DNA of 63,086 bases, counting the filler, from Choristocarpus tenellus KU-1152 (taxonomy: Eukaryota > Protista > Phaeophyceae): assembly GCA_964200185.2 (NCBI GenBank). It is 12 parts of 12 records of this genome, joined end to end, with 100 filler letters (N's around TTAATTAATTAA, not from the genome) between each part and the next. Parts side by side here need not be neighbours in the genome. Positions count along the whole stretch, not along the records: positions 56,558 to 59,901 come from CAXNAD020020673.1; 11 more parts are not named here. One strand, 5' to 3'. Shown here one piece after another: positions 600-62,518 of this stretch (within the stretch, counting starts at the first letter, position 1; every line of letters begins with the position of its first letter). The notes beneath the pieces were generated by a model, which was not told the DNA's origin, ran no database searches, and was given only the letters and a program-made list of their open reading frames with translations. A program made the translations under genes and the position numbers.

Positions 600-1963
600 C
601 CTACTCATACTGTTTCTTAGTGACCTTCACCATCTCCTTGATGGACCCAAACCCGCTCCCCAATCACCCGGCATTCCAAAGACCGGAAGAAGCACAGGTT
701 CATGATGTTGAGGTCGGGGGAGGTAGATGGCTGCGTCCGTCTCAAGCCTAATCGACCACCCCTCAGTCTTCCCTGCCCTTGACAAGATTTCTGAGTCGCC
801 CTTGCCCAAGTGGGGGGTGGCACCGTCTTGCTGAACAATAACGTACTTCTTTTCCCCTGCAACCAAGGCATCTTGATCTTCATTGCAGGCAGCAACTCCT
901 CCGTGTACCACTTCCTGTCTCGCACATGGTCTAAGTACAGTCCTACTCATACACATCCCTCTTTAAATGGTTCTTGCTTGTCCTGTCTGCCGTTGTTGGC
1001 GCATACACACGCCAAACACCAAGCTTTCCATCAAAGCTGTGAGCCGAATCTGGGCGAGCACTCGCTGCAATGATCATGGTTTTGGGGATATGACTCTTGT
1101 GCTGCACAATAGGGGACCCTGGAAGGTCGATATCATTTTCATGCGGAAATACCCTAACCCTTTCCCCATCAGCCATCACGTAAAACCAGGTTTCAGGCAC
1201 ATGGATTGTGTTCGCCATGGAGGCGTACATAACATGTTTCTGGTCCGCTTGATCGCAAACAGTCCATTCTCCATTTGTTTTGCCGCGATTTTTGCTTGGG
1301 TTTGATCCAGTGGCGATTCGGCATGGCCCCCATATCATCCATCCACCTGTTTATGGTGCTTGTGTTATAATTCAACCCCTTGGCAGCCATCTTCATTGCC
1401 ACCTGACGCACTGTGGATCACCGATTATCGCAGTTGATACTATTTATTGCGGTCATCTTGGTCGGTGTGACCTCTGAAGGCCACCCACTACGTGCCGCCA
1501 CCTCTAGGTCAAGCATGTGGCCACGGGTGAGCTTATCGGCGACGTACTCCCAGAGCCCTCGCATGTAACACTTGGACACTCCAAACTCCGCTGTGAAGGC
1601 TGACCCAATGTGTCGCGGCAGTTTATGCTCACCAGGGATAATCGGGAGGGCATGCCGCACTGTAAGCGCAACCCTGGTATTATGAGACACTTGGGCACCC
1701 TTCCTACACGGGGGGTCGACAGGGGAGTTGCCATGCCGACGTTCTGACCCTCGATGTGCCCAGTCCTGACCTCGAAATCACCCTCAAAGATCCCTACTTG
1801 ACGGTTTGAAGCACCTCTAGTTTGTACCTGATGATCCTTGACCCTCACCTTTTCTGAAAGCTGTCAACCCGATTTCATTCCGTCGTGTTATCGTCGGATT
1901 CGGCACCATTCTCGCTCAGCGAGCCCAGATGTTTCGCGGCACAAACTTGTGGCACAAAGATAG
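600..1963 (-). mobile_element. Degenerate Tc1/mariner element, plant-mariner (DD39D-like) transposase pseudogene
   Basis: Across frames: IHVPETWFY (cf. IHIDEKWFY), KSHIPKTMIIAASARP..FDGKLGVW, IVQQDGATPH and QPSTSPDLNIMNLCFFRSLE. Multiple frameshifts. Terminus TA|CTATCTTTGTGCC at 1963. Confidence 0.9.
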
Positions 1964-9849: not shown

Positions 9850-11975
9850 TTGATCCATACTATGTTGAAGAGTAATTCGACTTGAGACCCTGAGCAGCTC
9901 TACTTCCTCATGATGGTTTCTTGCAAACACTTCATACATGCTAAGCATCTACACCGACCGACTGATATTTGGTGTCCTAAGATTGAAGATGTCATAGGAA
10001 AGGTTCATCCACTTAGTCAACACAGTAGTGATCGTTAATAAGAAAATCGAACTGCTGTAGTAATGAGCAATGCACAGGATGTTTTTCTTGAAGTCATCTA
10101 CTTATCACCACACCCTGGACATCATAACGCACAATTTTAGATTGTCCTAGAATGTTGATAGTCAACCCGTAATTTGTGTTATCCATAATAATGTTAGGGT
10201 TCACTATGCTATCAATACCGGAGCCAATTTACTCTACACCGTTCCCTAGAACTAGGTTCGTGCCTAGTGTCTATTGTCATGACGATACTCAACACAATTT
10301 GCTCTGGTAACATACGTTATCCACAACAACAAATGCCTGGGGTCATTGGCTCAATTTGTATTTATTCCAAAAATTATAGCTTGATTTTCTAAGTTCATGG
10401 TCAGAAAAAAATAAGGCAACGTGGAAAAACATAAATCCGCAACTCTCACAAACCTCATTTTCCAGCTCAGCGCCGTTTGCCCTGTGATGCTCGTTGTCCA
10501 GAAAACCCTTCGGTAAATTTGCTCCTTTGGTTCCGTTATCTTGAATGGCGCTTGGGGCCTTCTACTCTCTGCTGTTCGTTGCACAGGACACAGCAGCCTT
10601 TCGTCTCAAACGTCTGTTGTCCCACAAACGGTTCAGCCCATTTTCTCTGTAGTGTCCGTTTTAAACGATAAACTCTCAGGTCCATTTGCTCCATTAATGA
10701 CTACTGTCCCATGAGAGGTGTTGTTGAGTGTGAGGGGTCCCTATGACTGCATTGTGCATTACACGGGTTTCCAGCACTGTGAAGGACGGGCAGTCTCTTC
10801 TACGACTACACCCTTCTAAAGGGGGTTAACTGCATTCCAGGCATGGATGGGTATGGCGTACATTGCACAAGATAAAAAACTTGAAAATCCAAAGGGTTCT
10901 TTCTAATCGATCCTCATTGATGATTTTACTCATTGAGGATGTGATACAGGCCCTTTACATTGTCCTGTGCGAATATCATGTTTTCATAGTTTAGTTTTTC
11001 ACAAGGTGATACGGTGCCAGTTCCTATAGAGACAGACATCATCAAGGCGATCGAACCATTCTTGTACAATAAATGATAGAGCTGGACATATCAATTCTAC
11101 TATGTTGTAATAGGTAAATATTTCGATGGAAAATGATTTCGAGACAGTATGGAAAATACTTAAGGGCGTAATTATATTCAAGAGAAATTTGTTTTAAGTG
11201 CCCGACAAGGACGGATCACCAATTACTCGAGAACTTTAAATCCTTGTATTGACACTAGAGTAGGGATGCGTTGCGGGAAAAAAATGTTGTCATCGATCAA
11301 CTCCTGTTCATACTGTGGACATGACACACGCAAATGCATATACTGGTACTACTGCAGCAAAATATGTATGTATGAAACACGCTGTATAGAGGCAGATAAT
11401 AGAAGAAAAAATGTGATCCTTCCAGTCCTAAGTAAAAAACATATCACTAAATAAGGGCGCTTCATAAATAATCATAATGTAGATACTATTGCCGTACTAT
11501 CCTTCCGTATGCATTTGTATCATTTGGTTAGGTTGTCTTTGGAGTGGGCTTCCTCCACCTGGGCTCCACCATTGCAGTCTAGAGTGTGGAACGTTTTAGA
11601 TATAACAGAGGATTTTCAAAATTGGGGATGGAGCGGGACTNNNNNNNNNNNNNNNNNNNNNNNNNNNNNNNNNNNNNNNNNNNNTTAATTAATTAANNNN
11701 NNNNNNNNNNNNNNNNNNNNNNNNNNNNNNNNNNNNNNNNATTGAATGACTCAGAATATCAAATGACTCAACAGTTCTCTAGTACACGTCAGAAACACTC
11801 CGACTCTAACAGTCTGCTGATTACTTCTGGTCATATACCCTGCCTAAATATCCCGAATGTCCCACATTATTGTCCATGCGTACATAAAATAATACTTCGA
11901 ATCATATCCTCACAAATGGTCAAGCATAATCTTGACATATCAAATGTCCTGGGCAATCAATACATGCAACAACAG

Positions 11976-12134
11976 GAGGACTTCATCAAGAAAAATTCAA
12001 CTTGGCACAATGAGCTGGAGCTGATGATCAAAATGAAGAAAAAAGCAGAGATCCAGGCCCTATCGGCTTTTGGTTTCCAGTACTTGACACACACGTACCT
12101 ACCCCAGAAACTGCAGAACGGAGACTGGTTGTGA
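11976..12134 (+). CDS. TOP6A: Last exon of DNA topoisomerase VI subunit A (SPO11-3 type)
   Basis: CAG acceptor, then [52 protein letters not shown]. Closely matches the plant SPO11-3/RHL2 C-terminus ([20 protein letters not shown]...DWL). Confidence 0.93.
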
Positions 12135-16022: not shown

Positions 16023-16857
16023 GACTCCTGTCACTCTGACCTCCCTCCCCACCATCAGGGGAACAGTCAACAACAGGCAGATCCTTGACAATCTGACCTA
16101 TGCTCCCTTCACCGGGGGGGGGATCATGAGTCAAATCGTCTCTTTTGTTACCAAAGGACGACCTCTCACCTAGAACAAACCTGTCCTCACTTCCGTTGCT
16201 ACAGGAAGAGTCGTCAGAGAGGGATGAAGTGGAGGAGCGAGATGAACAAACAGATTGTACATCTAATGGTGAGTCACCTGCTTTGGGATGGGGGAGACCC
16301 TCAGAACAAGGGTCTGCATCAAGCCCCCCCCCCCTTTCGCAAAGCAGGGGCAACCTCTCCTNNNNNNNNNNNNNNNNNNNNNNNNNNNNNNNNNNNNNNN
16401 NNNNNTTAATTAATTAANNNNNNNNNNNNNNNNNNNNNNNNNNNNNNNNNNNNNNNNNNNNACCCCCTAAGGTCTCTGAAAAGGGGCTGGGATAGCAGGT
16501 GTGTCCAGAGATGGTCCATATAGTGAGTAAATTTTTTATGTTTAAAAAAAAAAAAAATGCTGGAGGAGACCTCTCACCCTTCTGGTCCCTATTACCATGT
16601 GCAGTCCTTTGAACCAGTCCTATGATATGGGGTACCAACGTGGTACCTTCATGGGGACCGCTTCATTGACTGTCGAAGGGATGAAGACCTGTTACATTAG
16701 ATGAAGTTCTTAGTTCTGGTACAGCATGGTAGCCTTTCTTGCCCCTGCTGCACTCTGGTCAATAGTGTTAGCGACTTGAGTCAAGGAAGTAATGTATTTT
16801 TTTTTTTTCTCTCCCCCCTCCCCCGCCCTCGGCACTGACGTTGCTCCTTGCTGGCAG

Positions 16858-16993
16858 GGAGAAGATAGGTGATATATCCACAGAGATGCTGGAGCACGTG
16901 CTTGAGTCGTTTGCACAAGCAGCTCGAATTACCTTGCATGTGGATGTACTCAAGGGTACCAACAACCATCATAAGGCAGAGAGTGCCTTCAAG
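16858..16993 (+). CDS. HIS3: Internal exon of imidazoleglycerol-phosphate dehydratase
   Basis: AG|...|GT exon encoding [45 protein letters not shown], which contains the IGPD metal-binding motif N.HH..E..FK. Confidence 0.93.
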
Positions 16994-18447
16994 GTTGGTG
17001 CTGGTTGTCTTCTTAACCCTTTTTGGTGTAAGCAAGTACATCTGATGCTAGTTGGTGGGTTGATTGGGGGGGGGTTGAGGGACAAGACGCCTTCCTAGTT
17101 TTGTGCTGCACCTGTGTACCCTTTTTAAGGAATGCCTTCCTGGTTTGATCGGATAGTGTTACTGTGTTGTTTTTGTAGTGCTCTTTTAAAGTCCGCCATG
17201 AGCACACAGCAAGTAGCGTTGGTACTGGAGAGCTAAACCCTGATTCCTGATATAGGGTGTTTTACTTCATACTCTAGTGCTATTGGAATAGTGTCTGGCC
17301 CCTAGTCCGGATTCCAAATTTTGCTGAGAAAACCTCAAAATTGGCATTGGACCATGATGCTTAGCACTCAGGGATTTTCTTGTCTGTGTTGATAGAGTGA
17401 AAAAGTATTGGACCAGTTCCAATGTCTACTTCACAGTCAAAACATACAGTGGAATTGATTTGGGAAACCCGGTTATGTTGGTTTTCAAGGTTTTTGATAT
17501 TATATTATCGTGTTTCTAGACATCTGAAGGTCAATTGGATCTTTCTTGTTGTGGCAACATTGATTGGCTCAACACAGTTCTGGGCTGCCCGTGCTGCCTG
17601 AGAAGACTGGCCTGTCCTCCTGCTACCTCTGGGTGCTGCGGTGGCATTGTCTGGCCCTCCTTTGCCGTCATCTCTGTCCAACAAGTTACTCACTGTTGTT
17701 ACTATCAGAAGTGCTGCTTTTTGTCCAGGTTGCACATTTTGACGTGCTCCAACCTCCGGACTTGCTACTATCTACTCTTGACTACGTAGTGCGATGCTTA
17801 GCCATGTAGCATGCTACGTAGCGATCGAATGTGCAGGAGAAATGTCGTTCCACTGTCAAGTTTAATTGTTCGGTAAATTGGATTGGGAGAAATGAGTCCA
17901 TTTCTTAATTTTTTTTATGTCAGCGCCTTTTTCAAACGGGGTTGTTCTGTGAGGAGGAGTGAAACGCTCTGTAGTGGTCCTGTGATGAATTTGAAACGCT
18001 CTGTAGTGGAATTTTCCGAGAGTGGGAATGTATGTGCTGAAAGTGAGCATCAAAATAACTCCATGGTGTTAGTATCTACGCTCCTACCTTTGGGGTTTCT
18101 TTTTGAGGGTGTTGGACAGGAAGGTGCTATGCTGCACTTCTGATTTCCCTCCCTAACTACTATAATAGTGAACATTAATGTAAGATTAATGTAATACTAA
18201 TGTAGTAGTGTAGTTAACCAAATGGGACTGGACTCTGCAACTTTGTAATTGATTGTTTTCTGTGATTTATGGGTCTGAAAGTATAAAACTATGTATCTCA
18301 TCTACAAAATAATAACAGATTATAAAATAATAACAGATTGTAAAAGCAACGATAAGGAATCCAGGTCAAACCTACCTAGCCCCAGTGTGTCGTGTCCTCA
18401 GGTCCATTGGACTGTATAGAGGTTAGTAGTCGAAGGAGGGAGTTGGA

Positions 18448-19846: not shown

Positions 19847-19972
19847 TTCCGTCTGGGATTAATCCCTAGACTAACGATGAAATGCTAATAGTAGTAGTGA
19901 TAAAAGTAATTCAATGAACAACAATAACAATACAGTAATTAGTACAAACTTTTGATACTATGCCTTGTTCAG

Positions 19973-20340
19973 GTGTGGAAAGAGGATGCCTATCCACTGC
20001 CCATTCATATCACACTACCTTTCCCATGTTGGATGTGTGAAATCTTCTCGGGCCACAAGAGAGGACATGGCATCAAGCTCCTGGGGGTTACTGTTCACAG
20101 CGGGATCACTGAGGGCTGCTATGAACCTGTGGGAGGAACACTAGGTGATGGCTACCTCTTCCAAGGATCTCAGCTAAATGGGAGGCTGAGTGATGCACAG
20201 TTGGGTCAAGTATCTCATTATATCATTTGTGGCGATGTAGTATATTTGTCGCACATTTACTGTGGCCAATAAGGGCATTTTGAGCACACTGGAGAAGGAG
20301 CAAAACACGACAATTATGTGGGAAAAGACTTGTTGTCATG
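19973..20340 (+). pseudogene. PIF/Harbinger-ISL2EU group (DDE_Tnp_4) transposase remnant
   Basis: FSGHKRGHGIKLLGVTVHSGITEGCYEPVGGTLGD..SQLNGRL..YIICGDVVY, matching YSGHKR.H.LKFQ.V..DG.I...GP..GR.HD...S.L...Y.IYGD.AY. Confidence 0.78.
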
Positions 20341-28458: not shown

Positions 28459-30862
28459 TCAGGTAGGGGTTCTAGCCTTCCCCGTAATGAGCTCTCCATC
28501 TACTCCCTCCACATACTCCTTTGGTTGCCTGCTTAAGGCAGTTATCCCCTCTGGCGTAACCCGGAGCTCTGGTGGTGAAAACACCAAAGCAAGGTCACTA
28601 AATGCCCTCTCTGCGTGGGGTAGCAACTCCGTGTCCCGTAACCGACGAGCTTCACCCGGCGTCGGCACAACAGTCTCTTCCTCAAGCAGGGAGGAGGCTC
28701 TCAAAACACAATTGGACTCATCAGCAAGAGCTTCAGCTAATATAATACGTTCCCCATAGGCAGCAAGGCTATTGCCCAGGATCAAGAAGGAGCTAAAGCC
28801 TGAATGAATGAGTTTGTACAGGGAGAGTCATACGGGAGGAGTCAAGGGAGAAAAATAAAATCATAATAAAATCGATGAGGATATACTATCAAGACCAACG
28901 TACCCCTATCATACGAAAATAATGCCGGTATTACAGCTCTCTTGTGCCCGCACTGTCGCCTTTGGTTCTCAGAAGCATGAGCATTGACATCACAACAGGT
29001 CAGACGTTGTGGAATATAGGAATGTGCACAGGCTGAGCTCATTCAGAGATGAGAGCACAACCAAGGGTACAAAGCTGCAGGAACTAACACTTAGGTACAT
29101 GTAAACCAAGAGGATACATTGATGTGGATGCGAAACTGGATCCATCAATTGCCCTCATGCCTACCATACATCATGAGGGCAAGGACAAGGTGAGACTTGA
29201 AATTTCTTGCTCCATTCTGTTGCTTGGAGTACGGATTCAGGTGCTTCTATTTCATGCTCCCCCACCAATGAATGCATCGCATGAATGACATTACATAGAT
29301 GTCGCAAGAGAGACAACACCAGCGACTCCTCTCCTCTTCCTACAAAACGACTCTCTGTACCCTTATCACCAATCTAGGTGCCAGAACATATCGTAACATT
29401 GCGATTCGCAGTAGAATCGTACGACCTCACCTTCTGACGACCAATTTGCCCAGAGTAGGTTGCTGTACAGTCGCATTGGACAGTGGGGCATAAAGAAGAG
29501 TGTGGGGCAGGGTCCTGCCTTGTCACGTCCAAAGCAGCAACGCTTCCCCTCCTCATTTTGTGGAATGACTCCACACCCCAGCCTGGACAAGACAGCGAGC
29601 TCTCCTTTACCCATTGCCGGATCAAACACCAACATGTTTGGTACCTCCACTAGGGGTTGCAACGGTTGTGGGGGCTGCGATGGGGGATTTGATACATCCA
29701 ATTTCAGGCGGGTGTGTTGTTGCAGCTGACTGCTTGCAAGGACGAGGGGACAATGTTGGTTGCTCCCGATGCTGCTGACATCACTATTTCCATTGACCTC
29801 CTCCTTGCAAGGCTTAGCAGTCCTGGTCTGGTAGTTGTCGCTGGAGGTAGAGACGGCAAAGGTATCCTTGAACTCACTGATACCTATGTCGGGCTTTTGA
29901 GAGAGCAATGCCACCTCCTTGTCCCGTCCCTTCGAACATAGAGTATCACCTACAGCACGACTCTGTCCTTTGACTGTAGGCTGGAGGAAGAGAAGATTAC
30001 GGAGACACAGAGCTACAGCCAATTGATATCTACTGGCAGCATTTTCTGTGAAATTCCCAATACCATAGCATACCAACTCCACAATAGCTAGCTGTCTGGT
30101 ACGATCTCCTATCCCACTGGCACTGCTGTCCACCTGTGTCTCCCTCATCACACCCTTACAGGAGCTATCTAGACCACAGTGCGGTTGCAATTCCTCCCGC
30201 GCACAATCTGGAGGTAACACACTGAATCTCCCTTCCTCTACCTCTTCAATGCACTTTGCATATGTCCCACTAACTTCTGTCCCATCAAATCCATTTTGTA
30301 GGGTTGCATTTGTCTGTACGTCGCTACAATTGCATGTGCACATTTCCACAGCCAAGGGGGTAAGGAGCTCGTCTCTTCGGGAAACCAACCCTATTCCCTC
30401 GGTCAGTTTGCTAGATTGTAGTTCTCCCTGCTGCCAATCGCTTGTCCCATCCGCGACAGAGTGGCAGAACTGGGGTGTTTGTGGGTCCTCTTGACCTGGC
30501 GGAAGACGCAGCCCGAGCCGCGGCAGGACTGTTGAGAGGCGGTTGGTAATTTTCTCCCACAGCGCGCTATTCTCGATGAGTCGCCTCAACTGTTTGATCT
30601 TCTCCAGCTCCTCAATCAGGTAATTCTCGGAGGAAGGGCATACATCGTCACTCCGTGCTGCCCGTCGTTGGTCATACTTGTAACTACCAGCTGCCTCCTT
30701 ACCTCTCCTGCCAACGTGGGAGCTGGGATTACCTCTCCCCCCACCGTGCCGAGGGGGCTGCTTATGTTTTATACTTTTCTTTGTTCCTTTTGAGCCCGAT
30801 CCAAGGGATGCTTTAGCCTTGGAATGCCCTCTCTTGCCAACAGTGTGCCACTCCTCAGCCAT
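28459..30862 (-). CDS. SRR1: SRR1-domain protein, two exons (30862-29431, 28799-28459)
   Basis: ELVCYGIGNF..SRYQLA, FDP, NEEGKR, PTLFFMPHCPMRLYSNLLWANWS. A GTGAGG...TTCAG intron joins in frame to GFSSFLILGNSL..AFSDLAL. Confidence 0.9.
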
Positions 30863-32376
30863 CACTTGATACTCAACTAGAAAAATGGGCAAGTTATGCT
30901 ACAAGTCGGACCACCTGTGGACAAGGTAAGAAAAAATTATAACAATTAGACTCGATCAATAGGATAGGGTATCAAGGAATGGAGTAAGTGCAAGATGCAA
31001 ATATCTTGGAAAAGACTGACGCAGGTGCAAAGTTGCGCAGTTGTAAGAGCCTTGATAAGACGAGGCTAAAAATGCGCCATCAGCAAAGACCTCCTGTTTG
31101 ATTCTAAATGGACAGAAAAAGTCATCGATGGTCCTTGGAAACGTGTTGAGCAAGGTGAGCGAGCTGATGGAAGGTGGGGTGGAGATCAGAACAGACCTGT
31201 GAGAGAGTTCATGCCCGTGAAGCCACGATCGCCTTGTTCAATATCATAGAGCGAGAGTCACTACCCGCAGGTAGTGGGAAGAGACGACCCCCACTCGTGA
31301 ACATCAATGCTTCGGAACCATCAGTTACTGAGGTCATAAGTAGAGGTTAGGTAAAAGTAGGAGGTGGATGGGCAGATATCACAGTACAAGGCACAAACCG
31401 TGTTTAGGAACTCCCTGAGATATTGTACATACAGGTATTAGTAAGATTCAGTACTATGTACCCAGGGTCCAATGACTACCGATAGTTTATCGTCCTATTT
31501 AACAAAGGAAGAAGCTCGTCCTCATGTCTACCGTAGGAAGCTTAGCCTCATACTTCAGAAGGAAGACACCTGGTCCGGAGAAGGCTCCAGTGGAGGGAGA
31601 CCACGGACAAGTGAGAGATATACGTCCTGCCCTAGACCTTCGATGTAGCTCTAAACATCCTCTCTGATATTTTTGTGTCATACAATCGAGCGTGTGGATT
31701 TTTCTTTAGGTCGCACAGCTCTTTTCCCATTGCTGGTTGGTATATCACTTATTTCTTTTGTTGTGATTGTCGTCTACGATTCTTCTAACATTTTTTGCTC
31801 AGATGGTCCGTTTACAGTGCTAGATACTGATTTCATCTTTGGCTCAGTAAATCCAATGACTATAGCCTCGGATGGGATGTTTTGGCTTGCCGTTATTAAC
31901 TGAATCAATTCGCAAGCGGAGATGACCTCGGTGTTTTCCGTGATGGGCACACCAGTGAAGGCACTACTGCACACTTGGTAGTTACCAAGCCTTGGACGTG
32001 TGCTGGTGACGGGTTGCCCATCATTTTGAGTGCTACGTATGGTACAGTAGTTGATGTAGTTCATACTTCACCTCCCTCTTGTTCCAGATGTGGGTGTAAT
32101 TTGAGTACTGCTCCTGGTGACTAGAAAACACTTCGTCGAAATGGAACCGTCAACTTTGCTAGGGAACAGCATTCACCACAACTACTACTACTCAACTACT
32201 ACTACTCCTTAGAGTCTATAATGGGCTCTTGCTAGTCTTAGCTTACTCTTTCTCAACGAAGACTGATAGGTTATGAGTGTATGTGTAGTCATGCCCCGTT
32301 TACCAAGACCGCTGGTACACATTAACATAGTACCCCTGGTCTGTCGTCTCTTCATGGAATTCGTGACATACTGAAG

Positions 32377-39886: not shown

Positions 39887-42800
39887 ATGCAACCTAGGAC
39901 CCGATACAGAAGGTTAGGTACGAGAGGAATGAAACCCCCTCTCCCGTTAAAGCGTCCTAGTACCCGCAGTCTTCTCCGGCCGTTGTCTGAAGGAATCGGC
40001 AGTGGAGTGGAGCATCTGGCTAGGCAAGCATCGGCAGGGAGGAATGATTTAGGGGGACGGGGCTGGTCTGTGAGGTTCCAAGATGGAATCGTTGATAGAA
40101 CGTCCTCTTGTACATCGAGGGGAGTGGTGGAATCGATGCCTCCATCTTCCCTCGAGACGAAAGCCAACGAGACCCTTCGCGCATTGTGTGTTGATAAGGT
40201 GACCAGGGAGCAGCCTCACCTAGTTGACGAGGGAAGCGGAAATAGAACGGGGAAGGAGAAGTTGACGATTTCCCAGCACAATGCGAATCATCTCACAGAA
40301 ACAGAAGCCCGAGCTGCAGAGTGCGTTGGACAATTTTGGTCTGAAGACAACGGGCCTAAAGGAAGATCTCCGAGTGCGACTTGGAAGAAAGATATGCGAC
40401 TTCCTTCTATTGGGTGAGACCGTGCAAGGTAATATTATCCGGATGCAAAACCCACAAACAAGCGACATGGCGAATGATGACATCGACAACGAAACACAAG
40501 GATTCCAAGACAGGGAACCCACCTGCGGGGTGGAAGCTTCCAGCTTTGTAGTGCATACAACTAGTAGTAAAGGATCGAAGTCCACGGTTCCTGCAACAAG
40601 GATACGGAAACGCGTAGTGCCGGACAATGAGAAAGGTGATGCCGTCAGTTGCAGAGAAGATCAGTTGATGGGAGGGACTGATCCTGATGTGACCTTCGAT
40701 GGTATACCCATCGAAAGCATGACCATAGTAGCATTGACCAAGCATGTCAGAGCACTGGGGATAAAGGCAGCGGGGAAGAGGAAGGCTGATCTCCTACTCA
40801 GCCTGAGGCGGTCATTAGCAGTGACAGGACAAGCAAGAATGTGAACAAGGAGCCAGAGGCAACTGGGGGAAACACTGGTGGTGGGGGGGTGGGTGGTTGT
40901 GCTGGTAATGGCATCAGAACAAAAACAAATCGCAAAGATATTCCCAGTGAGGCAACGCCACCTGAAAAGAGGGTACATATTACTCAAAGAATGGGAGCCC
41001 AAGGCGGAGGACATGGCACCACCAGCATGGGTGGGGAAAGAGCTAAGATTCAGAAAGATTCAGAGGATGGGACAAGATAGTGGCTCAAACCCCTGTAAGG
41101 GTGACGTTGCCTGTCAAGGATATGCAGAGTGTGGTCGCAGTAGCTCACAGCCAAGGCGAGGGCGGTTGAAGAATCGGGGATACAGCCCTTCACTTGAGCT
41201 TGTGAATGGTCTCAGTGGGCTGGACAGGCGTGATGATTTGAGTCATGAGCATATCATCCATACCTCTAGAGTTGTGAGGAGGCTGGATTTGCTGATTCCT
41301 TAGTTGAAGAAGGCCAAGGGGGAGGCTCTGTTGACCAGATTAGGGGCAGGCTAAATTCTCTAGAGACTCCCACAGAGATGGAGGGTGAGGGGGGAAAAGG
41401 TGATGGCAGTGAACCTGGGTAGAACGGGTTTGACTGTGTTGGAGGCAGTAGTGACAATGAGGGGGACACTTGTGACAATGAGGGGGAAAAGGGCGACGGA
41501 AGTGGTGGGGATGGGAAGGACACTGATGAAGAAGGAGAGCAGGAGGATGAGGTGATGGCTGATGGGACCAATAGAGAAGATGTGGTCATGGGTAAGGAGG
41601 AGGAAAGTACATCTGAACTGACTCTGATGAAGGTATCGTGGGGTTGGGGGAGGTGTCACAAGATGGCTTCAACAATGAGGAGAATGGGGACAAGAATACC
41701 ACAATGGAGGTCAAGGAGGACGAAGAGGAGTTCATTGAGGTTAGGAAGGCGAGTGAGGAGGTGGATATGGCTGAAGATTTGACTGTGGAGGAAGAAGAGG
41801 AAGGTAGTGTTGGGCATGGAACTGCATTATCAGAGCAGGAGGTATCAGATGTCAATGGTGGCAGCCCTGAAGGAGACTACAACTACAACAAGTCGCAGCA
41901 TGGTTGTTGGAGGAGGACAACGAGGAAATCTCTATCCAAGAGAATGAAGTGGGTGAAGTTCGGGTGGTGGAGAGGGGTTAGGGTTAGGGTTTGGGCGTTT
42001 CATTGGGGGAGGAGGGAGTTGACCAGACTCTAGCGATGGAGGAAGATGAAGGGAGCTGGTTGGTGCAGGATGTCAAGGAGGAGGAGGAGGAAGGGGCTGA
42101 AAGTATGGTGGACAATGAGAGCTGGTCTGCACAAGAGGTAGGGTACCAGACTTTGACAAGTGGGGTTGGGGGTGATAAGGGTGCAGTGTTGAAGGAGGTG
42201 GTGGAGTACCAAGTCGAGGCAAGGGAGGAGGGCAGTGAGTGCAACAAGTCTGTAGAAGAGGATGAGGAGGAAATGGAGGAAGAAGACCAAACTATTTTGA
42301 TGGAGGAAGAGGAAGAGGGCAGTCAATCTGACTTGGGAATTGCTATTCTTGATGAGATAGAGGAGAATGGTGGTGCAAAAATGGAGAACTACTGGAGGCA
42401 AGCAGAGTTACTCTTTGCTGCTGATGCTGAGGATGATCGAGAGCTGAAGGCCACTTTCACAACAGCTGATAGCACTATCCCAGTGACTCCCCTAGAGGGC
42501 ACCACTGCACTTGATGCTGATGACGTTGATGGGGAGGAGATCCCGGCTGTGCAAGCAGAGGAAATTTCAGAGGGTGGGGTGGAGGAGGAGAGTTCCTGTT
42601 ATGGTGGGACGAGAGATGGGGTAAAGAAGTGTGTTGAAGAGTCATTTATCTCCACTGTTGAAATATGAATGTGGTTGGTGAAGTGGGGAACCCCAGTGAT
42701 GTTAAGATTGAGTCAATTGAGGGTGTTTCGGAAAACCTATCATGCGGTAATCATGTGGGATTGAACACTGAGTGAGTGTAAGGGAGCGGGTGATGATAAG

Positions 42801-43469
42801 GGAAATCTACTCTAAAGTTACTGAGAGATATAGGTACTTGATGGAGGGGCGAGGGGGGGGGGCAGAGGAAAACAGGATGAATGTGAGGAGGAAGATGCCG
42901 CAGAGGATGGGAGCTAGAGATTAAGACTTGATGATGGGGAGATGCAGCTTTCCGGTGAATATGCCCTTGAAGAGGACTATGGAGAGGACAGGATTTGGGA
43001 TTCGCAACTCAGTGAAGGCTTCAGAGAAAGCCTGAGAGACTCAGAGGAGGATGAAGATCCAGAACTGGATGTTCATGACAAAGAATCAAATGAGAGGGAA
43101 GACTTGGAGGGGATTGATCACAAGCGCAGCCTATCAATTCACTCTGAAGAGGAGGACGAGGAATATAATAGGGGAGAGTCCAGCAGTCACATTGGGAGGA
43201 AACAGGAGGGTGTGAATGTGAGCAGTGATGATGAATACATCAAAGATGGGCCTGTGGAAGATGGGTGCTGGAAGGGAGAGGGTGGAGGGTTGGGGCATGG
43301 AGACTTGGATGTGCACAATAGCAACCGGGGAGATGCATCAGAAGCTAATCAGAGGTCAGAAGAGGATGAAACTGTCACAGTTGCTGCTTCTCAGGGGGAA
43401 CGGGGAATGGAAGGCAGTGCTCCTACAGATGCCATTGATGTGACGGACTCTGACAACCAGTTGACGTAG
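39887..43469 (+). pseudogene. Decayed gene for a large SAP-domain protein with a long acidic tail
   Basis: SAP-like KPELQSALDNFGLKTTGLKEDLRVRL and MTIVALTKHVRALGIKAAGKRKADLLLSL, then about 2.5 kb of E/D/G-rich frames broken by many frameshifts and stops. Confidence 0.65.
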
Positions 43470-53967: not shown

Positions 53968-56358
53968 ATATGCTGTGGACACAAAAACGCTCCCAGAGAG
54001 GTGGAAAACCTTTTTCAGCAACGCCAACGATAACACCAATGAAGGCGTTATTCACCAGACCAGACCATGGTGTTCTGTGCAGTTTCATCCAGAGGCTGCT
54101 GGGGGTCCCATGGACACTGCCTTCCTTTTTGAGTCTTTTATCGATGTGAGTGGGAAAGAGGGAAAAATAAATAAATAAATATATATATATATATATACAT
54201 TAAAAAAAGGGTTTAAATATTTTTATTTATTTATGTTTTGTTGTGGTTTGTATTGTTTGAAATAGAGAGAAGGTAGAATAAAATAAATAGAATAAAATAA
54301 ATAGAATAGAATAAAATAAAATAAAATAAGTAGGATTGCTTGGTGGGGTGATATTTTTGAGAAGTAGAGACGGACAGGTGGATAAAATTTTTGTTTTTGG
54401 AAGATGATATAATTTTTATGATAATGTATTGAATTATTTTTTTGTTTAAATTAAATTTTTATGATTTTTTTTTCGATATTATTTTTTTTGAGATAATTGT
54501 TTCTTCTTGTGTGTGTGTGTGTGTTTTTTTTTCAAAAGAGTTGACATTTGTAAAATACTAAAATATTTTATAAAGTTGAAATATTGTTCATTTTATAAAA
54601 TAAATTAAAATACTTGCAGAAGTAAATAGTTGGTGCATGTTGGACACTGCTATTGGTTGTTCTAGTTGTACGCAGTAAGATAGTACTGAGTGTGTTATTG
54701 TGTTACTATCTATAGTACTTACTGAGTGTGTTATTGTGTTGCTATCTATTGTACTTACTGAGTGTGTTATTGGGTTACTATCTATTGTACTTGCTGAGTA
54801 TGTTATTGTGTTGCTATCTATAGTATTGAGTGTGTTACTGTTGTACTATCTATGGTCTCCTGGATAATATATTTTACTTTTGATTGAGGTGCTGCAACGG
54901 TAGGGTTTGTAGTTTGATTGTGGGTATCGCATGATTGGTTGATATTGTAGTCAGTTAATTTTGTAGTTAATTTTGTAGTTAGTTTATTTTTTAGTCAGTT
55001 AATTTTTTAGTTAGTTAAATTTGTAGTTAGTTAATTTTGTAGTTAGGCCTTTGCCGTAGAGGCAGTGTGTGTATGATAGATACAGTTGCAATCTCCTACA
55101 TTCTGCTCATTCCTGTTTGGTGTTTTTGTTTATTATGCTAGTGTTTTTTTTTATTGGATAGGCGTGTTTGCTGGATAGTAATATATACTAATACAGTGAA
55201 GCATTCCTTTTTATATTTTTGCTGTAGATGACAATTAGTTGATGTGCACTTATTATATTAATTCTTACACTTATTATAATTCCTATACTTTCTATACTTA
55301 ATTGTATTAATGATTATTCTTATTATAATTCCTATACTTCCTATACTTATTGTATTAATGATTATTCTTATTATAATTCCTATACTTCCTATACTTATTG
55401 TATTAATGATTATTCTTATTATAATTCCTATTCTTATTGTACTACTTATTATGCTAATTATAATTCCTTTTCTTCCTATTCTTATTGTACTACTTATTAT
55501 GCTAATTATAATTCCTTTTCTTCCTATTCTTATTGTACTACTTATTATGCGTATTATAATTCCTATACTTCCTATACTTCCTGTACTTCTTTTACTTACT
55601 ATACACCTTTCACATGTTTTGTGTTCTCTCTTTTTAAAAATAAATCCTTGTGTGGTACATACACTCTACAGCCTATTGTCATGTTTTGTGTGCAAAATAA
55701 GAACCCACCACCAAGACTAAGGTGTCATTGTTTACAGAAGAGAGGTCAATGAGAGTTAATTTGGTTCACACCTGTTGATCAAAGGACCTTTTTTGGTGAT
55801 GCTATAACTTCCAATCTGATTTTTATATCATTTTATTTTATTTTATTTATCATTAACATGAGCGCGTGCACTTCAAATTAAAAAAAAAATGTGAATAGAA
55901 TATTGTTAGGGTTTAACTTCTATGTGATTGCTACTGCTGTCGATGTGCACGCATTACTTTAATTTTTTTATTAATTTTTTTATTGCCTTTGATATCGGAA
56001 TTAATGATTTGTTTTTTTTGTTTTTTGTTTTATTTGTTTTATTTTTTGTTTATAATTTATTTTGGACTCTTGATTGGTCAATTTCTCTTCTTCACGGTAG
56101 CGGTATGAGAAGCATCTGCTGGTTAAATTAAAAATTTAAATTACAAAAATGTTCGCATTTAAAAAAAATTATTATTATTATTTTATTTTATTTTATTTTA
56201 TTTTTGGGTATTGGCAGGTGGTTTGCGGAATGCCACCGAAGCTAACTTTGCTGGAGCCACATCTGTTTGAACAAAGAAATATCAAGAAAGTTTTACTACT
56301 TGGCTCTGGAGGCCTTAGCATTGGACAGGCTGGGGAGTTTGACTATAGTGGATCGCAG
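53968..56358 (+). CDS. Two internal exons (53968-54145, 56218-56358) of a fused glutaminase + synthetase carbamoyl-phosphate synthetase
   Basis: [31 protein letters not shown] (end of GATase) splices in phase 0 to ..[25 protein letters not shown] (start of the CPS large domain). Canonical AG/GT sites. Confidence 0.93.
54685..54850. repeat. 36-bp minisatellite (about 4.5 copies) in the CPS intron
   Basis: ACTGAGTGTGTTATTGTGTTACTATCTATAGTACTT at 54685, 54721, 54757 and onward. Confidence 0.9.
55250..55600. repeat. About 48-bp AT-rich minisatellite in the CPS intron
   Basis: Repeats of TTATTATAATTCCTATACTTCCTATACTTATTGTATTAATGATTATTC and variants. Confidence 0.9.
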
Positions 56359-56780
56359 GTATGACAGGATTACATACCTGGGGGGGGGGGGGGGGTTGTT
56401 TTGGTTTTTTTGGGGGGGAAAGGGGGTGGGGTTCATTTGTTTTTTTTTTGTTGGGTGNNNNNNNNNNNNNNNNNNNNNNNNNNNNNNNNNNNNNNNNNNN
56501 NTTAATTAATTAANNNNNNNNNNNNNNNNNNNNNNNNNNNNNNNNNNNNNNNNNNNNCCTTTTACGTCCCCCCTCACGCAGCGAAACGGTGGACATGGAG
56601 AAGTGCACGTGGGTCTCGGCGTGGTTGCACATTATACAGACACACAAGTCGTCTCTGCGTGTTTGTTTTCGCGTTGGTTTGCACATAGGTCTTGGCTGCT
56701 TGTACATCATGTGGATTGCTCGTCCCTTGTGCGTCATTCTATGTCGTTTTTTGGAGGTTTCCATGGGCCATGGAACTTAG

Positions 56781-59089
56781 TGTTTTGACGTCTACCCTCC
56801 TTCCACGAGATGCATCTGATGAGTCTGGCGTTGTGGAGGGTACGGCTGGTACCCTTTGATCGCCTGGACGAGTTCGCCTTCCGCAATGCGCCAAAGCTCG
56901 CCATAGTGTCCATTGCCGCCGAGCCAAGACTCCTCAACGGCGAAGAGGCGACCAACACGCACTTGCGCCAGGTGCTTAAGTGCTTGCGGGTGAAGATACA
57001 TCCTCAGGGCACCATCGCGCTCATTGTGCCCCACCCGTGGATGGCGCAAATACACCGCCTAGGCAGTGAGTTGCAGAGTTCGCAAGTGCTGGAATACAGG
57101 GTATATTGTGGGAGACTGTTGCGATCCGCCATGGCCGTTATCATTCCGTCCGTGTGCCCATCGAATATTGTGCGGCCGTTCAGGAGATGTGCATTAGGTT
57201 ATGTGTCTTTCTTTTTCACTTTCCTCATGTTGTTTCAGTCCTTCGTACCTTCTACTTCCTTTGGTGTCTCTTGCTCTTTCCCCCGGGTCCTTCGTAGTTC
57301 TTTGTTTCATTGTACGCGAATCGCATGCTGGTGTTACTCGTCTTCACTACATTGTTTTTGCCATATATACTTCTATTATTACTTAATTTCCTATTGTTTG
57401 CATTTTTTGCATTTGTTATTTGCCTTGCGTTCCACACTCATTGTACTATTATAATGTTAGTGGTATGAGATTTCATGAATCCCTACGATAACCACTTGTG
57501 TGATGTCTCTGTCGAGTTTGACGCATGCCGGACCCACGCGCTCGCTCCCGCCTTCTATTCATTCAGAGGCTCCTATGGCGTCGAAGGTGGACTTGATTGT
57601 CAAGGACCATCCCCTAACCATCTCAGATGTTGTCAGGACATTATTATTTTTGTGCACAACGATGGGACAATGTTCACATGCAACAAGCGAGTAACCGTCG
57701 ACGACATCTTTGGCCACGGGCGTGATGCATCTCCTTCGGTACTCCAAACCATGTTGGACGTCAAGTACGAAAGTGCTGCAACGGACATCCCCATGAGGGC
57801 CCTCCACTTCCACGTTAACAGGTTCATTAATAACGTAACACACACCCTTCTTAACAGAAGCAACGACTTTTTTTGCGTAGGTGTAGGAGATCGTTAAACA
57901 GTAACAGAACGAGCTGGGTGACGGTTCAGGGGCGTCAAACCATCCCACGAATGTGTTGTCCTGTATCGGAACGTTACTCATACATTGCGATATGATGAAT
58001 CCGTGCGCAATACAATGTACTCCTCGAGATAATTGACGAACTGCCCTCCTATGATAGGTACACAAATGCTGGGGACACCGTGGTCTCCTTCAGCGCAGAG
58101 AGGCACAACGTGGTGGAGGCGGCCCTTGAATGGAGCAGGAGGGTGGAGGTGTTCGTGTCCAACGCGGCGTCAAAGGACAAGGTGAAAGAGAAGATGGACA
58201 CGTCCTGCGGCCAGGCCTACAAGGACGGCAAGTGGAAGGTAAGAAGGGTGTGCTGGCTTTTTTTTCCATTGCTTTCCAACTTGTTGTCTGTCTTCGTTCC
58301 CTATGGATAGGTCTCAGGCGTGCGATTGTACCAGTGATGTTTCCTTGTCGATGCTTACACGTTGCTAACACGGTGCACGCAGTTACCCACACCACCGCTT
58401 GAAATCGCGAGTCCCCAAGACTTTGGTGTGAGCGTTGGTACGTAGTAATGTCCTCCTGCCCCACACGAACAAAAAACAAATGTGCTGCAGTACGCCACAA
58501 CATCTTTGACCAACGCCGGAATAACCCCTACATACGTGACGAATCCTTATCGCATAGCTAACCCACTTCACTGCCACATTGTTGGGCTGTCACATGTACG
58601 CACATGATGTTCCAGGTATCCACGTCTCTTGTTCAAGAACGCGTGATAGGCCCTTCCTGCCTTCCGGAAGCCTTGGGGCAGACCCTCGTCCCAACAGAGC
58701 CGCAGCAATGTTTTGCTGAGGCCGTCAATCCTTAGGGAAAGGCAATGGGACGCGATGAGGCGACCATTTTCGTTTCGAAGACGGTGGCGACGGACTTCGG
58801 CTACCAGATCGAGGTGAATGTGGTATAGAATGCACTAAGTTACATATTTTGTGAAGAACGAACGGCAGAGTTTAGTTACCGGCACGCAGAATAAACTTTT
58901 TTTTAATTCCCAAGTCCTAACCTATCTAATGCAGCACCCAAATACATCGCGTAGAAAACTATGGGCCTTGCAGGTGTAAGTATTGCATCGGTAGTGTGTT
59001 GAACCTTTTGCACCAATAAGGTTGCCGTTTTTGCACCACCTTCGGACGATATTACCTCCAAATCACGAACATTCATGAATCACCGAACT

Positions 59090-59125
<36 letters not shown>

Positions 59126-59901
59126 ACCCCCCCCCCCCCCTTTTTTTCCCCCAAATTTAACCCCCGGTAACCNNNNNNNNNNCCCCCCCAACACCCCTCG
59201 ACCCCACCCAACCCCACCGCCGTCTTTGTCTTCCGCAATATTCAGCCGCGTGTAAGCTCGTCCTCGAATTCCGCGGAAATGGCCTTATTCCCGCTTGAAG
59301 GGAAATACTACAAAGTCGGCGGAAATGACCTCCCTGCGTGGGGTGATCTCCAAGTGTGCAACTCTCGATCAAAGGCCTTCCGTTCGATCTCTCTTGAAGA
59401 CCAAGAAGAACAGTACATTCGTCTGCTTCATGTGGCCAACAACAGACAGCTCAAGCGCATGCTTTCGCCTGGAATGGAGGTGTGTGGGCCGGTCGCAGAG
59501 CTCTACTTGCACGTGGCAGCCACTTGCCCTCTCTACTACATGTGTTGGACTGAGAAGGCAGACAACACCAACATTGAATTCACGTCAAAAGTGCCACAGA
59601 GCGGAAGCCGTCACCAGGTCCTCCTCCCCTTCTCCCAGGTTGGCCCCGGACAGATGTTCGTCATGCCCTTGGTCGGGAGGGTGTGCAAACCCCGGGCAAA
59701 GAATGACACCAGATCACCATTCAACGCACTCCCGGATCTTAGGGTAGTGGGTTCGAAGTGCTGGATTCGGACTCGGACTTGACGCCAATGACCACTAGAA
59801 AGCGCAAGTGTCCCTCTTCCCCCACGGGTGGAAAGGGTAAAGGTCGCAAGGTATGGAGGGGTGTCGGTGATTCTGCCATGGAAGACGACCCGGAGTATGT
59901 C
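56781..59901 (+). pseudogene. Spliced gene (exons about 56781-57197, 57567-57821, 58058-58238, 58616-58813, 59246-59901+) for a degenerate beta-class N4/N6 DNA methyltransferase-like + SET-like protein; frameshifts and one stop
   Basis: Four GT-AG introns join in phase (2,2,0,0); GC-rich exons; in-frame TAG at 58733. Domain identity rests on manual motif alignment only. Confidence 0.55.
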
Positions 59902-60024
59902 NNNNNNNNNNNNNNNNNNNNNNNNNNNNNNNNNNNNNNNNNNNNTTAATTAATTAANNNNNNNNNNNNNNNNNNNNNNNNNNNNNNNNNNNNNNNNNNN
60001 NGGTTTCAACAGGCCGTTCCTCAT

Positions 60025-60925: not shown

Positions 60926-61219
60926 GTAGTATCATAAGAAGAATCCTGGAAAAGGAATATTGTAGCCAGTAACATAGATTGAGTGATGAGTTATTGGTGA
61001 TCTCGGATGAGTGAAAGGTTTATCACTTCCCCTCCTTCTTGAATGGTGCTTCTCACTCCAAGTATCTACCTACAACAACATAACTGAGAAGGAAATAATC
61101 TACATATATTAACATCAAGACTTGGGATTCTACACACTATTAAATATGCTAGGTACTATACTTTAACATGTGCTGATATTTCAAGAAAGCTAATAGTAGA
61201 GGGGTCAGACGTAGTCCCA

Positions 61220-62518
61220 ATGGTGTCTGCTATCGGTAACGTGAACATGGAGGATGAAGATGTTGGGGTGAAAATACAGGCCTTCTATGATGAGGAGGAT
61301 CTAGCAACGAGGGGTATCGTGAGTTCAAGATGGACTGCAGGAGTGGACCTGCAGCGCCTCATCCCACTTCCTTCAAAAATTGTGGTGTATACTGGTGACG
61401 ATGATGGGGAGAGGTTTCACACGTACAAGAAACGATTCTTAACTTGTGCTGCAATGGGTGGTTGGATGGATGCATTGTTCACTCAAGACCACATCGGGGT
61501 GGGCCTTGAAGGACACAACATGTCAAGGTGGACACGGCAGGAAGTACGAAAAGCCACCATGGCGTTGGCTGGGTTGGTTATGAGTGTAGGTGGACTTGCA
61601 CTCGACATTGTCGATAACCACAACAGCCCGTGTGAAGCTTTGCAAGCACTGAGAGACAGTTTTGAAAGAGACGGTATCACGGAATGAACGATCTGGAGGA
61701 CATAGTTACATGAACTGCATATAGCTATTGGGGTGGATCCTGCTGATATTATTCAAGAGATGAAAAAGCTGGTGAAGAAGTTGCAGCGCCTTGGCACTGA
61801 ACCAGACGAAGAAGAGCAGCTGACAGTCTGTTTTGCTGCAGAGTATATGATCGCGATACGTCAGATTTCCGATGCGGGTCGAACGGCTAGGTTGCAACTT
61901 CAGAAGAAGTTTTGCGAAACCGACAGGATGAACAAGAGATTGGTGGACAGTGGTATTGGGAACCACAGTGGAGCGCTGATGTCTAGTGGAAGCTCGACTT
62001 TCAATCAAGGATTGCGATCTATATTGGGTGGTCAACATGGTGTAAAATGTTTCAAGTGTGGTGGACTCCATTACATGTCAGTTTGTCGGTCTGTTTCTTC
62101 CCCACCTGTAACAGGCAAATTTTCTGGTACCTGCTACATTTATAATTGTAGCGGAACGGGACACAGAGCTAAAAATTGTCCTGGATATGTAGTAGCTATG
62201 GCGGCAGCCAAACAAGTTGTAGATGGTGGTGCACCAGCTACTCAGAGGATGAGGCGTAGTCGAGGGAAGGCGAATGGTGGAAATAATGGACTGCCGAAGA
62301 TGCTCGGAGGTTTCTCAATGGTGAGGGATGAGAACGTTGAACAGTGGGGTGATGTATGGTATTTTAATACTGGTTGTTCTGTCCATATGACCAACAACCC
62401 CATTGTTTTGATAGGTCAAGGACCTGTTAGTGGAAAGTCTGTGATGGTTGGGACAGGACAGAAACTTCGTGCCATCATAATTGGAAACTTACCATTATGT
62501 TTGTTGTATTCAGAATAA
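61220..62518 (+). mobile_element. Ty1/Copia gag-protease pseudogene
   Basis: Gag helical region, zinc knuckles CFKCGGLHYMSVC and CYIYNCSGTGHRAKNC, and protease-like WYFNTGCSVHMT (cf. WxxDSGASxHMT). Stop at 61685. Confidence 0.87.

What the first reader, a model, noticed from the sequence alone, without database searches (positions are those of the whole stretch)
58616..59901. The MTase-like gene continues into a divergent SET-like domain and an NLS: a DNA-MTase + SET fusion architecture
SEEN: exons 58616-58813 and 59246 onward join in phase 0. They give GYQIE|PRVSSSSNSAEMALFPLEGKYYKVGGNDLPAWGDL, CPLYYMCWTEKADNTNIEF, VLLPFSQVGPGQMFVMPL and then RKRKCPSSPTGGKGKGRK. KNOWN: SET domains run V..S.I..AG.GLFA...I..G..I..Y.G, ARYINH...N..F, and A.RDI..GEEL..DY. 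INFERENCE: a catalytically eroded SET domain fused behind the MTase-like fold, forming a candidate nuclear chromatin factor linking DNA and histone marks. I do not know a described protein with this architecture. It is the best candidate here for an undescribed system.
Basis: partly seen in the sequence, partly recalled or inferred. Interest (0 to 1): 0.78.

Follow-up and report, generated by a model that had tools for sequence, protein, structure and literature searches.

The report
Brown algal methylase-SET fusion, broken copy
This is a broken copy of a many-copy brown-algal gene, likely carried by a DNA transposon, whose intact relatives join a predicted DNA-methyltransferase fold to a predicted SET (histone-methyltransferase) fold with the usual catalytic motifs of both missing, so the protein likely binds chromatin rather than methylating it; the same pairing is already described from red-algal transposons.

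Summary
The fusion is real at family level, but this copy is dead. The 58813/59246 splice is seen in one run, and intact brown-algal gene models read through it (one 83% identical). Predicted structures of intact relatives give a beta-class N6A/N4C DNA methyltransferase fold (Z 17) followed by a SET/PR fold (Z 9.3; the top 49 of 50 hits are SET/PR). Pfam and profile searches miss the SET fold. The catalytic and SAM-binding motifs of both domains are absent in all 12 long homologs checked. The gene is a many-copy repeat whose subfamilies cut across the algal tree. It likely belongs with the ParB-methyltransferase accessory gene of the Ectocarpus Sola1-1 transposon. The DNA-methylase + SET pairing is already in print (Bostrychia PAG2). 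What is new is the hidden, eroded SET domain and a PHD-like finger in the brown-algal form. No transposase or element end could be examined.

The parts
56558..59901 (+). The whole contig between two scaffold gaps; one decayed copy of a many-copy repeat gene, cut at both ends
   Evidence: N/TTAATTAATTAA spacers at 56458-56557 and 59902-60001; 84 to 2314 contigs per run laid at 85% on 56558-59070; no second copy in the window
56559..56608 (+). Probable upstream exon fragment (linker before the methyltransferase fold); boundaries uncertain
   Evidence: weak tblastn match to P0047 58-81, E 0.069; X3 joint 56607->56850 without canonical ends
56858..57065 (+). Exon with the start of the beta-class methyltransferase fold; the motif IV position reads SIAA instead of DPPY
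   Evidence: 47 of 68 identical to P0047; X3 joint across 57066-57566; motif mapping
57567..57821 (+). Exon, middle of the methyltransferase fold, with about 52 bases lost and a frameshift at 57614
   Evidence: P0068 residues 46-63 absent, two bases between the frames; X3 joint 57821->58058 GT..AG, 2 contigs
58058..58238 (+). Exon with the degenerate SAM-binding motifs I and II (YTNAGDTVVSFSAER ... RRVEVFVS)
   Evidence: 52 of 60 identical to P0068; X3 joint 58238->58616 GT..AG, 4 contigs; mapping to phage methyltransferases
58616..58813 (+). Exon: linker, two predicted helices and the first SET strand (FGYQIE); premature TAG at 58733-58735
58814..59245 (+). Phase-0 GT..AG intron with a C run and 10 N
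   Evidence: X3 joint, 1 contig, 21 letters on the short side
59246..59749 (+). Exon part with the body of the SET/PR-like fold
   Evidence: 143 of 168 identical to P0068; model of the P0068 part matches SET/PR domains
59749..59901 (+). Basic (RKRK, putative NLS) and acidic tail, out of frame in this copy after loss of about 10 bases; cut by the gap
   Evidence: 43 of 51 identical to P0068 430-480; loose ends at 59754

Best explanation
This is a broken copy of a many-copy brown-algal gene, likely an accessory gene of a giant DNA transposon, whose intact product is predicted to join a beta-class DNA amino-methyltransferase fold to a SET fold, both likely unable to methylate, so that it would act as a DNA- and histone-binding shield for its own element. 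Shown: the exons, the splice, the lesions, the many copies, and the absence of the catalytic motifs. Predicted: both folds. Inferred: that the host element is a Sola-type or similar DNA transposon; that the full-length protein also has an N-terminal ParB-like domain and a PHD-like finger, as Ectocarpus P0063 appears to; that the ParB-like and dead methyltransferase parts hold the element's DNA while the PHD-like and dead SET parts engage nucleosomes and hinder host silencing (as the VANDAL anti-silencing protein does by another route).
For: Fusion: X3 joints and full-length gene models. Folds: methyltransferase Z 17.0, rmsd 3.6, 188 aligned to 2zie, with CcrM, MboIIA, RsrI and rotifer N4CMT next. 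SET part alone: pLDDT 78.7; 60 of 48,161 chains reach Z 2; best Z 9.3, rmsd 2.9, 123 aligned (PRDM11); ranks 1-49 of 50 shown are SET/PR proteins or complexes holding one, by title and in a few cases by recall; Foldseek PRDM9 E 7.7e-4. Erosion: none of 12 long homologs (some partial) has [DSN]PP[YFW], DPF, NH[SC] or E[LI]xx[DN]Y. Against 35 phage methyltransferases, D(L/P)PY maps to SIGA and LDxxMGSGTT to VSLSAERHNV. Folds kept under constraint: 26 invariant residues in 8 sequences that are mostly 24-30% identical. Repeat: 7 different Choristocarpus tenellus gene models on contigs of 7 different lengths, 76-96% alike where they overlap in frame, one frameshifted; several 91-95% copies in one Ectocarpus strain; thousands of variant contigs. 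Subfamilies cut across taxa. A 1104-aa ParB + N4/N6 methyltransferase gene is reported inside Ectocarpus Sola1-1 (PMC12477816); P0063 is 1116 aa with a DGNHR motif, a C4HC3 pattern and this methyltransferase + SET core.
Against: No transposase, terminal repeat or target duplication was seen: the contig is 3.3 kb, no genome is held and no scan returned DNA around a family member. Identity with the Sola1-1 protein is unconfirmed: its FASTA files cannot be read, and the lengths differ (1104 against 1079-1116). The ParB-like and PHD-like labels rest on recalled motifs; Pfam, PHROGs, NCBIfam and PDB sequence searches gave no significant match (best a PHD-containing chain at E 6.3). The SET call has no sequence-level support (profile against viral SET proteins E 0.64, reversed control 0.84), and Z 9.3 is only moderately above the tool's 7-8 background. 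Loss of motifs is not a measured loss of activity. Nothing here tests binding or anti-silencing. Summed read depth is not a copy number and no single-copy control was laid.
Confidence: 0.55

Rival explanations
1. Transposon accessory protein with a structural role in transposition (end binding or pairing through ParB-like and dimerising methyltransferase folds), with no effect on host silencing.
For: Same repeat and fold evidence. Beta-class methyltransferases are often dimers (established knowledge). ParB binding to inverted repeats is proposed for PAG3.
Against: Two histone-associated folds (SET, PHD-like) are kept across deep subfamilies, which a purely structural role does not need. No palindrome array lies in this contig, though the 5' part is missing.
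Confidence: 0.18
2. A domesticated or ordinary expanded host gene family of chromatin readers, not mobile; this copy is one pseudogene among paralogs.
For: Spliced, intron-rich and expressed at family level. An Ectocarpus member is annotated 'expressed unknown protein' on a 4.5 Mb record. No transposase seen in the window near the gene.
Against: Many decayed copies and thousands of variant contigs, introns included. The tree rejects taxon-wise grouping (AU p 0.002 and 4e-93; groups follow taxonomy but were tested after a first tree was seen). A like gene is reported inside Sola1-1.
Confidence: 0.12
3. An active self-methylating enzyme with non-canonical motifs, marking its own element with N4-methylcytosine or N6-methyladenine, as proposed for the Sola1-1 protein and PAG2.
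For: The fold is complete over residues 77-319. The published predictions. An S or D is kept at the first motif IV position in most subfamilies.
Against: PPY, the glycine-rich loop and the motif II acid are replaced differently in each subfamily, the pattern of relaxed constraint. Brown algae are reported to lack or nearly lack DNA methylation.
Confidence: 0.1
4. The C-terminal domain is not SET-derived; the likeness comes from a shallow alignment and a prediction artefact.
For: No sequence or profile match to SET. The five models range from pLDDT 56 to 79. TM-scores are 0.35-0.5.
Against: Two separate models (P0047 whole, P0068 part) and two aligners give SET/PR and almost nothing else.
Confidence: 0.05

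Closest known systems
PAG2 of Bostrychia moritziana Plavaka transposons (bioRxiv 10.1101/2025.02.11.637652; passages and section 8 read; supplements not seen)
   Same: A transposon accessory gene joining a DNA amino-methylase (PF01555 family fold) and a SET domain in one protein; mobile among transposon families in seaweeds.
   Different: PAG2 domains are detected by InterPro; here neither is and the catalytic motifs are gone. ParB is on a separate gene (PAG3) there but appears fused here (P0063). No red-algal protein was among the named hits, so common ancestry of the fusion is untested.
1104-aa ParB + N4/N6 methyltransferase accessory gene of Ectocarpus Sola1-1_Ec32 (PMC12477816; passages, supplement 1 part 2 and supplement rows read; FASTA supplements unreadable)
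   Same: Brown alga, spliced accessory gene, similar size and N-terminal/methyltransferase layout to P0063, P0064 and P0066, which are relatives of the window gene (27-31% identity to P0047 or the window exon). Likely the same family.
   Different: The passages read mention no SET or PHD domain and predict an active methyltransferase. The window gene is in a different deep subfamily, and its host element is unknown.
Phage and bacterial beta-class amino-methyltransferases (CcrM, M.MboIIA, M.RsrI, YhdJ, TTHA0409)
   Same: Fold and permuted motif order; 55 of 74 viral ORFs carrying the family's (Y/F)TNAGDT(V/I) segment are such enzymes.
   Different: They keep D(L/P)PY (51 of 55) and the GSG loop; the algal family keeps neither.
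SET/PR domains (PRDM11, PRDM5, PRDM9, SET8) and phaeovirus SET proteins
   Same: Predicted fold; phaeovirus proteins take 4 of the top 9 ranks among viral models.
   Different: 7-15% identity, no NH(S/C) motif, no C-terminal DY, and an inserted helix before the last strands.
Bdelloid N4CMT (N4 methyltransferase + chromodomain) and the inactive methyltransferase domains of DIRS1 elements (PMC4738411, passages)
   Same: Prokaryote-derived amino-methyltransferases joined to chromatin domains, or carried dead by transposons.
   Different: N4CMT is an active host enzyme (abstract start seen). The DIRS1 domain is of another structural group and has no SET.

Membership tests
SET domain | SET beta fold | tested here: met
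   Predicted model; Z 9.3, rmsd 2.9, 123 aligned; 60 of 48,161 chains at Z>=2, nearly all SET/PR
SET domain | C-terminal pseudoknot | tested here: inconclusive
   Aligned ranges reach model residues 205-213, but the tools give no residue-level topology
SET domain | Sequence match to PF00856 or a SET profile | tested here: not met
   No Pfam hit; no PDB sequence hit; hhalign E 0.64
SET domain | NH(S/C) SAM-binding motif (recalled; present in the viral SET proteins by selection) | tested here: not met
   0 of 12 long homologs
SET domain | C-terminal ELxxDY with the catalytic tyrosine (recalled) | tested here: not met
   0 of 12 long homologs, two of which end or diverge before this place
Beta-class N6A/N4C DNA methyltransferase | Permuted Rossmann-like fold, motif IV before motif I | tested here: met
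   Z 17.0, rmsd 3.6, 188 aligned; profile match probability 95%, E 1.7e-8, inflated by motif-based selection, reversed control E 0.58; unselected YhdJ E 2.3e-4
Beta-class N6A/N4C DNA methyltransferase | Catalytic motif IV, (D/S/N)PP(Y/F/W) | tested here: not met
   SIGA, SIAA, SPGK, DLTR, PLGL at the mapped place; 0 of 12 by pattern, three or four of which do not span it; the one NLPY (P0033) lies in the SET part
Beta-class N6A/N4C DNA methyltransferase | SAM-binding motif I (DxFxGSG) and motif II acid | tested here: not met
   12 of 12 lack it after GDT(V/I); the one FxGxG (P0018) lies in the linker
PAG2-type transposon methylase-SET gene | DNA methylase and SET in one reading frame | tested here: met
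PAG2-type transposon methylase-SET gene | Sequence homology to PAG2 | not tested
   No PAG2 sequence was available from the tools; 14 of 30 hits looked up carried an organism, all brown algae
PAG2-type transposon methylase-SET gene | Located within a DNA transposon next to a transposase | not testable with these tools
   No genome held; scans returned no flanks
Sola1-1_Ec32 accessory protein | About 1100 aa with N-terminal ParB-like domain and N4/N6 methyltransferase | tested here: inconclusive
   P0063 is 1116 aa with DGNHR at 151, but no profile confirms ParB; the window lacks the 5' part
Sola1-1_Ec32 accessory protein | Opposite strand to a Sola transposase inside 282-bp terminal repeats | not testable with these tools
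   Element sequence files unreadable; contig too short

The most novel reading that the evidence does not exclude
Giant brown-algal DNA transposons have kept, across the whole class, a four-part protein (ParB-like, PHD-like, phage-type DNA methyltransferase, SET, the last possibly taken from phaeoviruses) in which both enzymes are dead: a double pseudo-enzyme that finds its own element and blocks host chromatin silencing in a lineage that has largely lost DNA methylation and PRC2.
Probability: 0.3. Interest if true: 0.75.

Novelty: new variant of a known kind. Interest (0 to 1): 0.45.

Why it matters
Methylase + SET accessory genes of seaweed transposons have been read as active writers of DNA and histone marks. 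In the brown-algal family both catalytic sites look lost while the folds persist, which points to binding rather than writing and changes the experiment to do. It adds a hidden SET domain and a PHD-like finger to what is likely the published Sola1-1 protein. It also gives a testable candidate for transposon anti-silencing in Ectocarpus, where how transposons are silenced is still open. The window copy itself is a pseudogene and of no separate interest.

Tried and rejected
No whole genome held. Pfam on 8 pieces of the gene: no family at E 10. Pfam, PHROGs and NCBIfam on homologs: nothing significant (a PHROG methyltransferase at E 0.15-0.2). PDB sequence searches with family queries were blank or chance. 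Atlas: no usable hit for the exon; for P0044 only leads under 0.9, several of them N6_N4_Mtase. No RNA holder was listed by the run search; X3 is read as RNA only from its GT..AG joints, which X1, X2 and X4 lack. Locus scans of viral, metagenome and prokaryote collections found no relative. The one metagenome pattern match, L001, shares only the motif. Phage tblastn was chance or blank. The EsV-1 record is not in the collections, so the phaeovirus lead is untested by sequence. An intron at 59680-59742 to bring RKRK into frame was rejected: no joint, and relatives show a small deletion instead. An acceptor at 58735 that would skip the stop was rejected: the joint lands at 58616 and relatives read through. 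P0023, one of the 42 hits, was dropped as a repeat-driven bacterial match. Any link to the flanking carbamoyl-phosphate synthase or copia pieces was rejected: they lie on other contigs. No complex prediction was run. Paper searches for a described brown-algal SET version turned up, as bearing on this, only the papers cited; Iyer 2011 and subscription journals were not seen.

Full report
Setting. The window is a scaffold of short contigs joined by N/TTAATTAATTAA spacers. The finding lies in a 3.3 kb contig, 56558-59901, so the carbamoyl-phosphate synthase pieces to the left and the copia-like relic to the right are not shown neighbours. No genome is held. The closest named relatives are gene models of the brown alga Choristocarpus tenellus.

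Observation. The quoted peptides are present and intron 58814-59245 is GT..AG in phase 0. Run X3, of unrecorded kind, shows GT..AG joints 57821->58058 (2 contigs), 58238->58616 (4 contigs) and 58813->59246 (1 contig, 21 letters on the short side); X1, X2 and X4 show none of them where laid. I read X3 as RNA on that basis. These reads come from the family, not necessarily from this copy. The intact model P0068 (512 aa) reads through all these junctions and matches the window pieces at 376 of 455 residues. The window copy has three lesions. There is a TAG at 58733-58735, where the family has C at 58733. About 52 bases are lost at 57614. About 10 bases are lost near 59750, which puts the RKRK tail out of frame (loose read ends at 59754). 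It is a pseudogene.

A repeat family. At 85% likeness, 2314, 1963, 394 and 84 contigs of the four runs lay on 2.5 kb, introns included; summed depth is no copy number and I had no single-copy control. Seven C. tenellus gene models on contigs of seven lengths overlap at 76-96% identity, one with a frameshift. One Ectocarpus strain has several copies at 91-95%. A search of 1.84 billion representatives gave 42 hits (P0023 dropped as spurious). Of 30 proteins looked up, 14 carried an organism and all 14 were brown algae: Choristocarpus, Discosporangium, Ectocarpus, Scytosiphon, Undaria, Cladosiphon. The tree has four deep lineages. Choristocarpus groups with Scytosiphon (63% identity; support 100/100), not with Discosporangium, and Ectocarpus has two distant subfamilies. 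AU tests reject both taxon-wise groupings (p 0.002 and 4e-93; long branches, and tested after the first tree). Old subfamilies or horizontal transfer, both typical of transposons, would give this; so would ancient paralogy.

Folds. AlphaFold2 of P0047 (590 aa, 25 rows, mean pLDDT 68.5) gives two domains. Residues 77-319 match beta-class amino-methyltransferases: TTHA0409 Z 17.0 (rmsd 3.6, 188 aligned), MboIIA and CcrM 16.7, RsrI 15.1, rotifer N4CMT 14.7 (Foldseek E 1.5e-8). Residues 353-563 match SET/PR domains. The P0068 C-terminal part folded alone (pLDDT 78.7, pTM 0.78) aligned at Z>=2 to only 60 of 48,161 chains. The best is PRDM11 (Z 9.3, rmsd 2.9, 123 aligned), then PRDM5, PRDM9 and SET8, and ranks 1-49 of the 50 shown are SET/PR proteins or complexes holding one, by title or in a few cases by recall. 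Foldseek agrees (PRDM9 E 7.7e-4), and viral SET proteins lead the viral library, four of the top nine from phaeoviruses (a lead only). Against this, no sequence method sees SET, and a profile comparison with SET proteins from 7 viral loci gave E 0.64 against 0.84 for a reversed control. The SET call rests on predicted structure.

Catalytic state. The family's best-kept segment, (Y/F)TNAGDT(V/I), pulled 75 viral loci. Of 74 ORFs with it, 55 continue LDxxxGS and 51 of those have a D(L/P)PY-type motif. Aligned to 35 distinct ones, the algal family has SIGA at D(L/P)PY and VSLSAERHNV at LDxxMGSGTT (probability 95%; the E-value is inflated by that selection; unselected E. coli YhdJ gives E 2.3e-4). 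None of 12 long homologs, some partial, has the motif IV, DPF, NH(S/C) or ELxxDY patterns (motif names recalled), and the replacements differ among subfamilies. Yet 26 positions are invariant across 8 diverse members. I infer two pseudo-enzyme domains kept for binding. The third is probably about 20 residues early, since VLLPFSQ sits in a predicted helix.

Full-length form. Ectocarpus P0063 (1116 aa) adds an N-terminal region with DGNHR at 151 (ParB-like, recalled motif) and a C4HC3 pattern (PHD-like) before the same core. No library confirms either label. P0047, P0044 and P0033 begin with parts of the same cysteine pattern. The window contig ends before this region.

What is known. PMC12477816 (passages; supplement 1 part 2 and rows) reports a 1104-aa ParB + N4/N6 methyltransferase gene opposite the transposase of the 21.5 kb Sola1-1_Ec32 element and proposes self-methylation. 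'PHD' occurs 0 times and no SET domain is named in the passages shown. Its FASTA supplements could not be read, so identity with P0063/P0064 is likely but unconfirmed. The Bostrychia preprint (passages, section 8 whole; supplements not seen) describes PAG2, a Plavaka accessory gene with PF01555 + PF00856, and names VANDAL as the only transposon known to bind and modify its own sequence. So the architecture is in print. PMC13076208 and the Phaeoexplorer preprint (passages) report loss of DNA methyltransferases in brown algae, and differ on DNMT1 in Discosporangium. PMC4738411 (passages) gives the precedent of dead methyltransferases in DIRS1 elements. The listed paper searches found no account of an eroded SET domain in this family; Iyer 2011 and closed journals were not seen.

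Verdict. The claims of an undescribed architecture and a working gene at this locus do not. Best reading (0.55): transposon cargo encoding a non-catalytic DNA and histone binder that shields its element; transposon residence, the N-terminal domains and the shielding role are inferred. New variant of a known kind; interest 0.45.

Noticed in passing
window 1-63086: Eleven N44-TTAATTAATTAA-N44 spacers split the window into short contigs, so neighbourhood across them is not shown.
   Followed up: yes
window 54002-54175 and 56140-56361: Exons of a carbamoyl-phosphate synthase gene (GATase E 6.6e-12, CPSase_L_D1 E 6.5e-8), cut by the gap at 56458; the intron between holds 36-, 16- and 48-base tandem arrays.
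   Followed up: partly
window 61088-62515: Decayed copia-like gag/pol piece (zf-CCHC and Pol_BBD, both under their cut-offs).
   Followed up: partly
window 11742-12131, 16793-17095, 29369-30898 (-), 40266-43466: Host gene pieces: Spo11/TOP6A Toprim, imidazoleglycerol-phosphate dehydratase, SRR1, and a SAP-domain protein with a long acidic region.
   Followed up: partly
window 19943-20269 and 620-1350 (-): Transposase relics: weak DDE_Tnp_4 match (E 0.002); the second looks mariner-like by eye only, with no Pfam hit.
   Followed up: no
P0068 against P0047: 63% identity between the Choristocarpus and Scytosiphon members, against 24-30% between subfamilies; possible horizontal transfer between distant brown algae.
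   Followed up: partly
model of the P0068 SET part: Phaeovirus proteins (FirrV-1-G2, Feldmannia species virus SET, FirrV-1-J1, EsV-1-28) take 4 of the top 9 viral fold ranks; a possible source of the SET domain.
   Followed up: partly
P0077 (Cladosiphon): A gene model joins a partial family member to ankyrin repeats; probably a merged prediction.
   Followed up: no
window 56558-59901: CpG observed/expected is 0.88 in this contig against 0.55 for the whole window; not explained.
   Followed up: no
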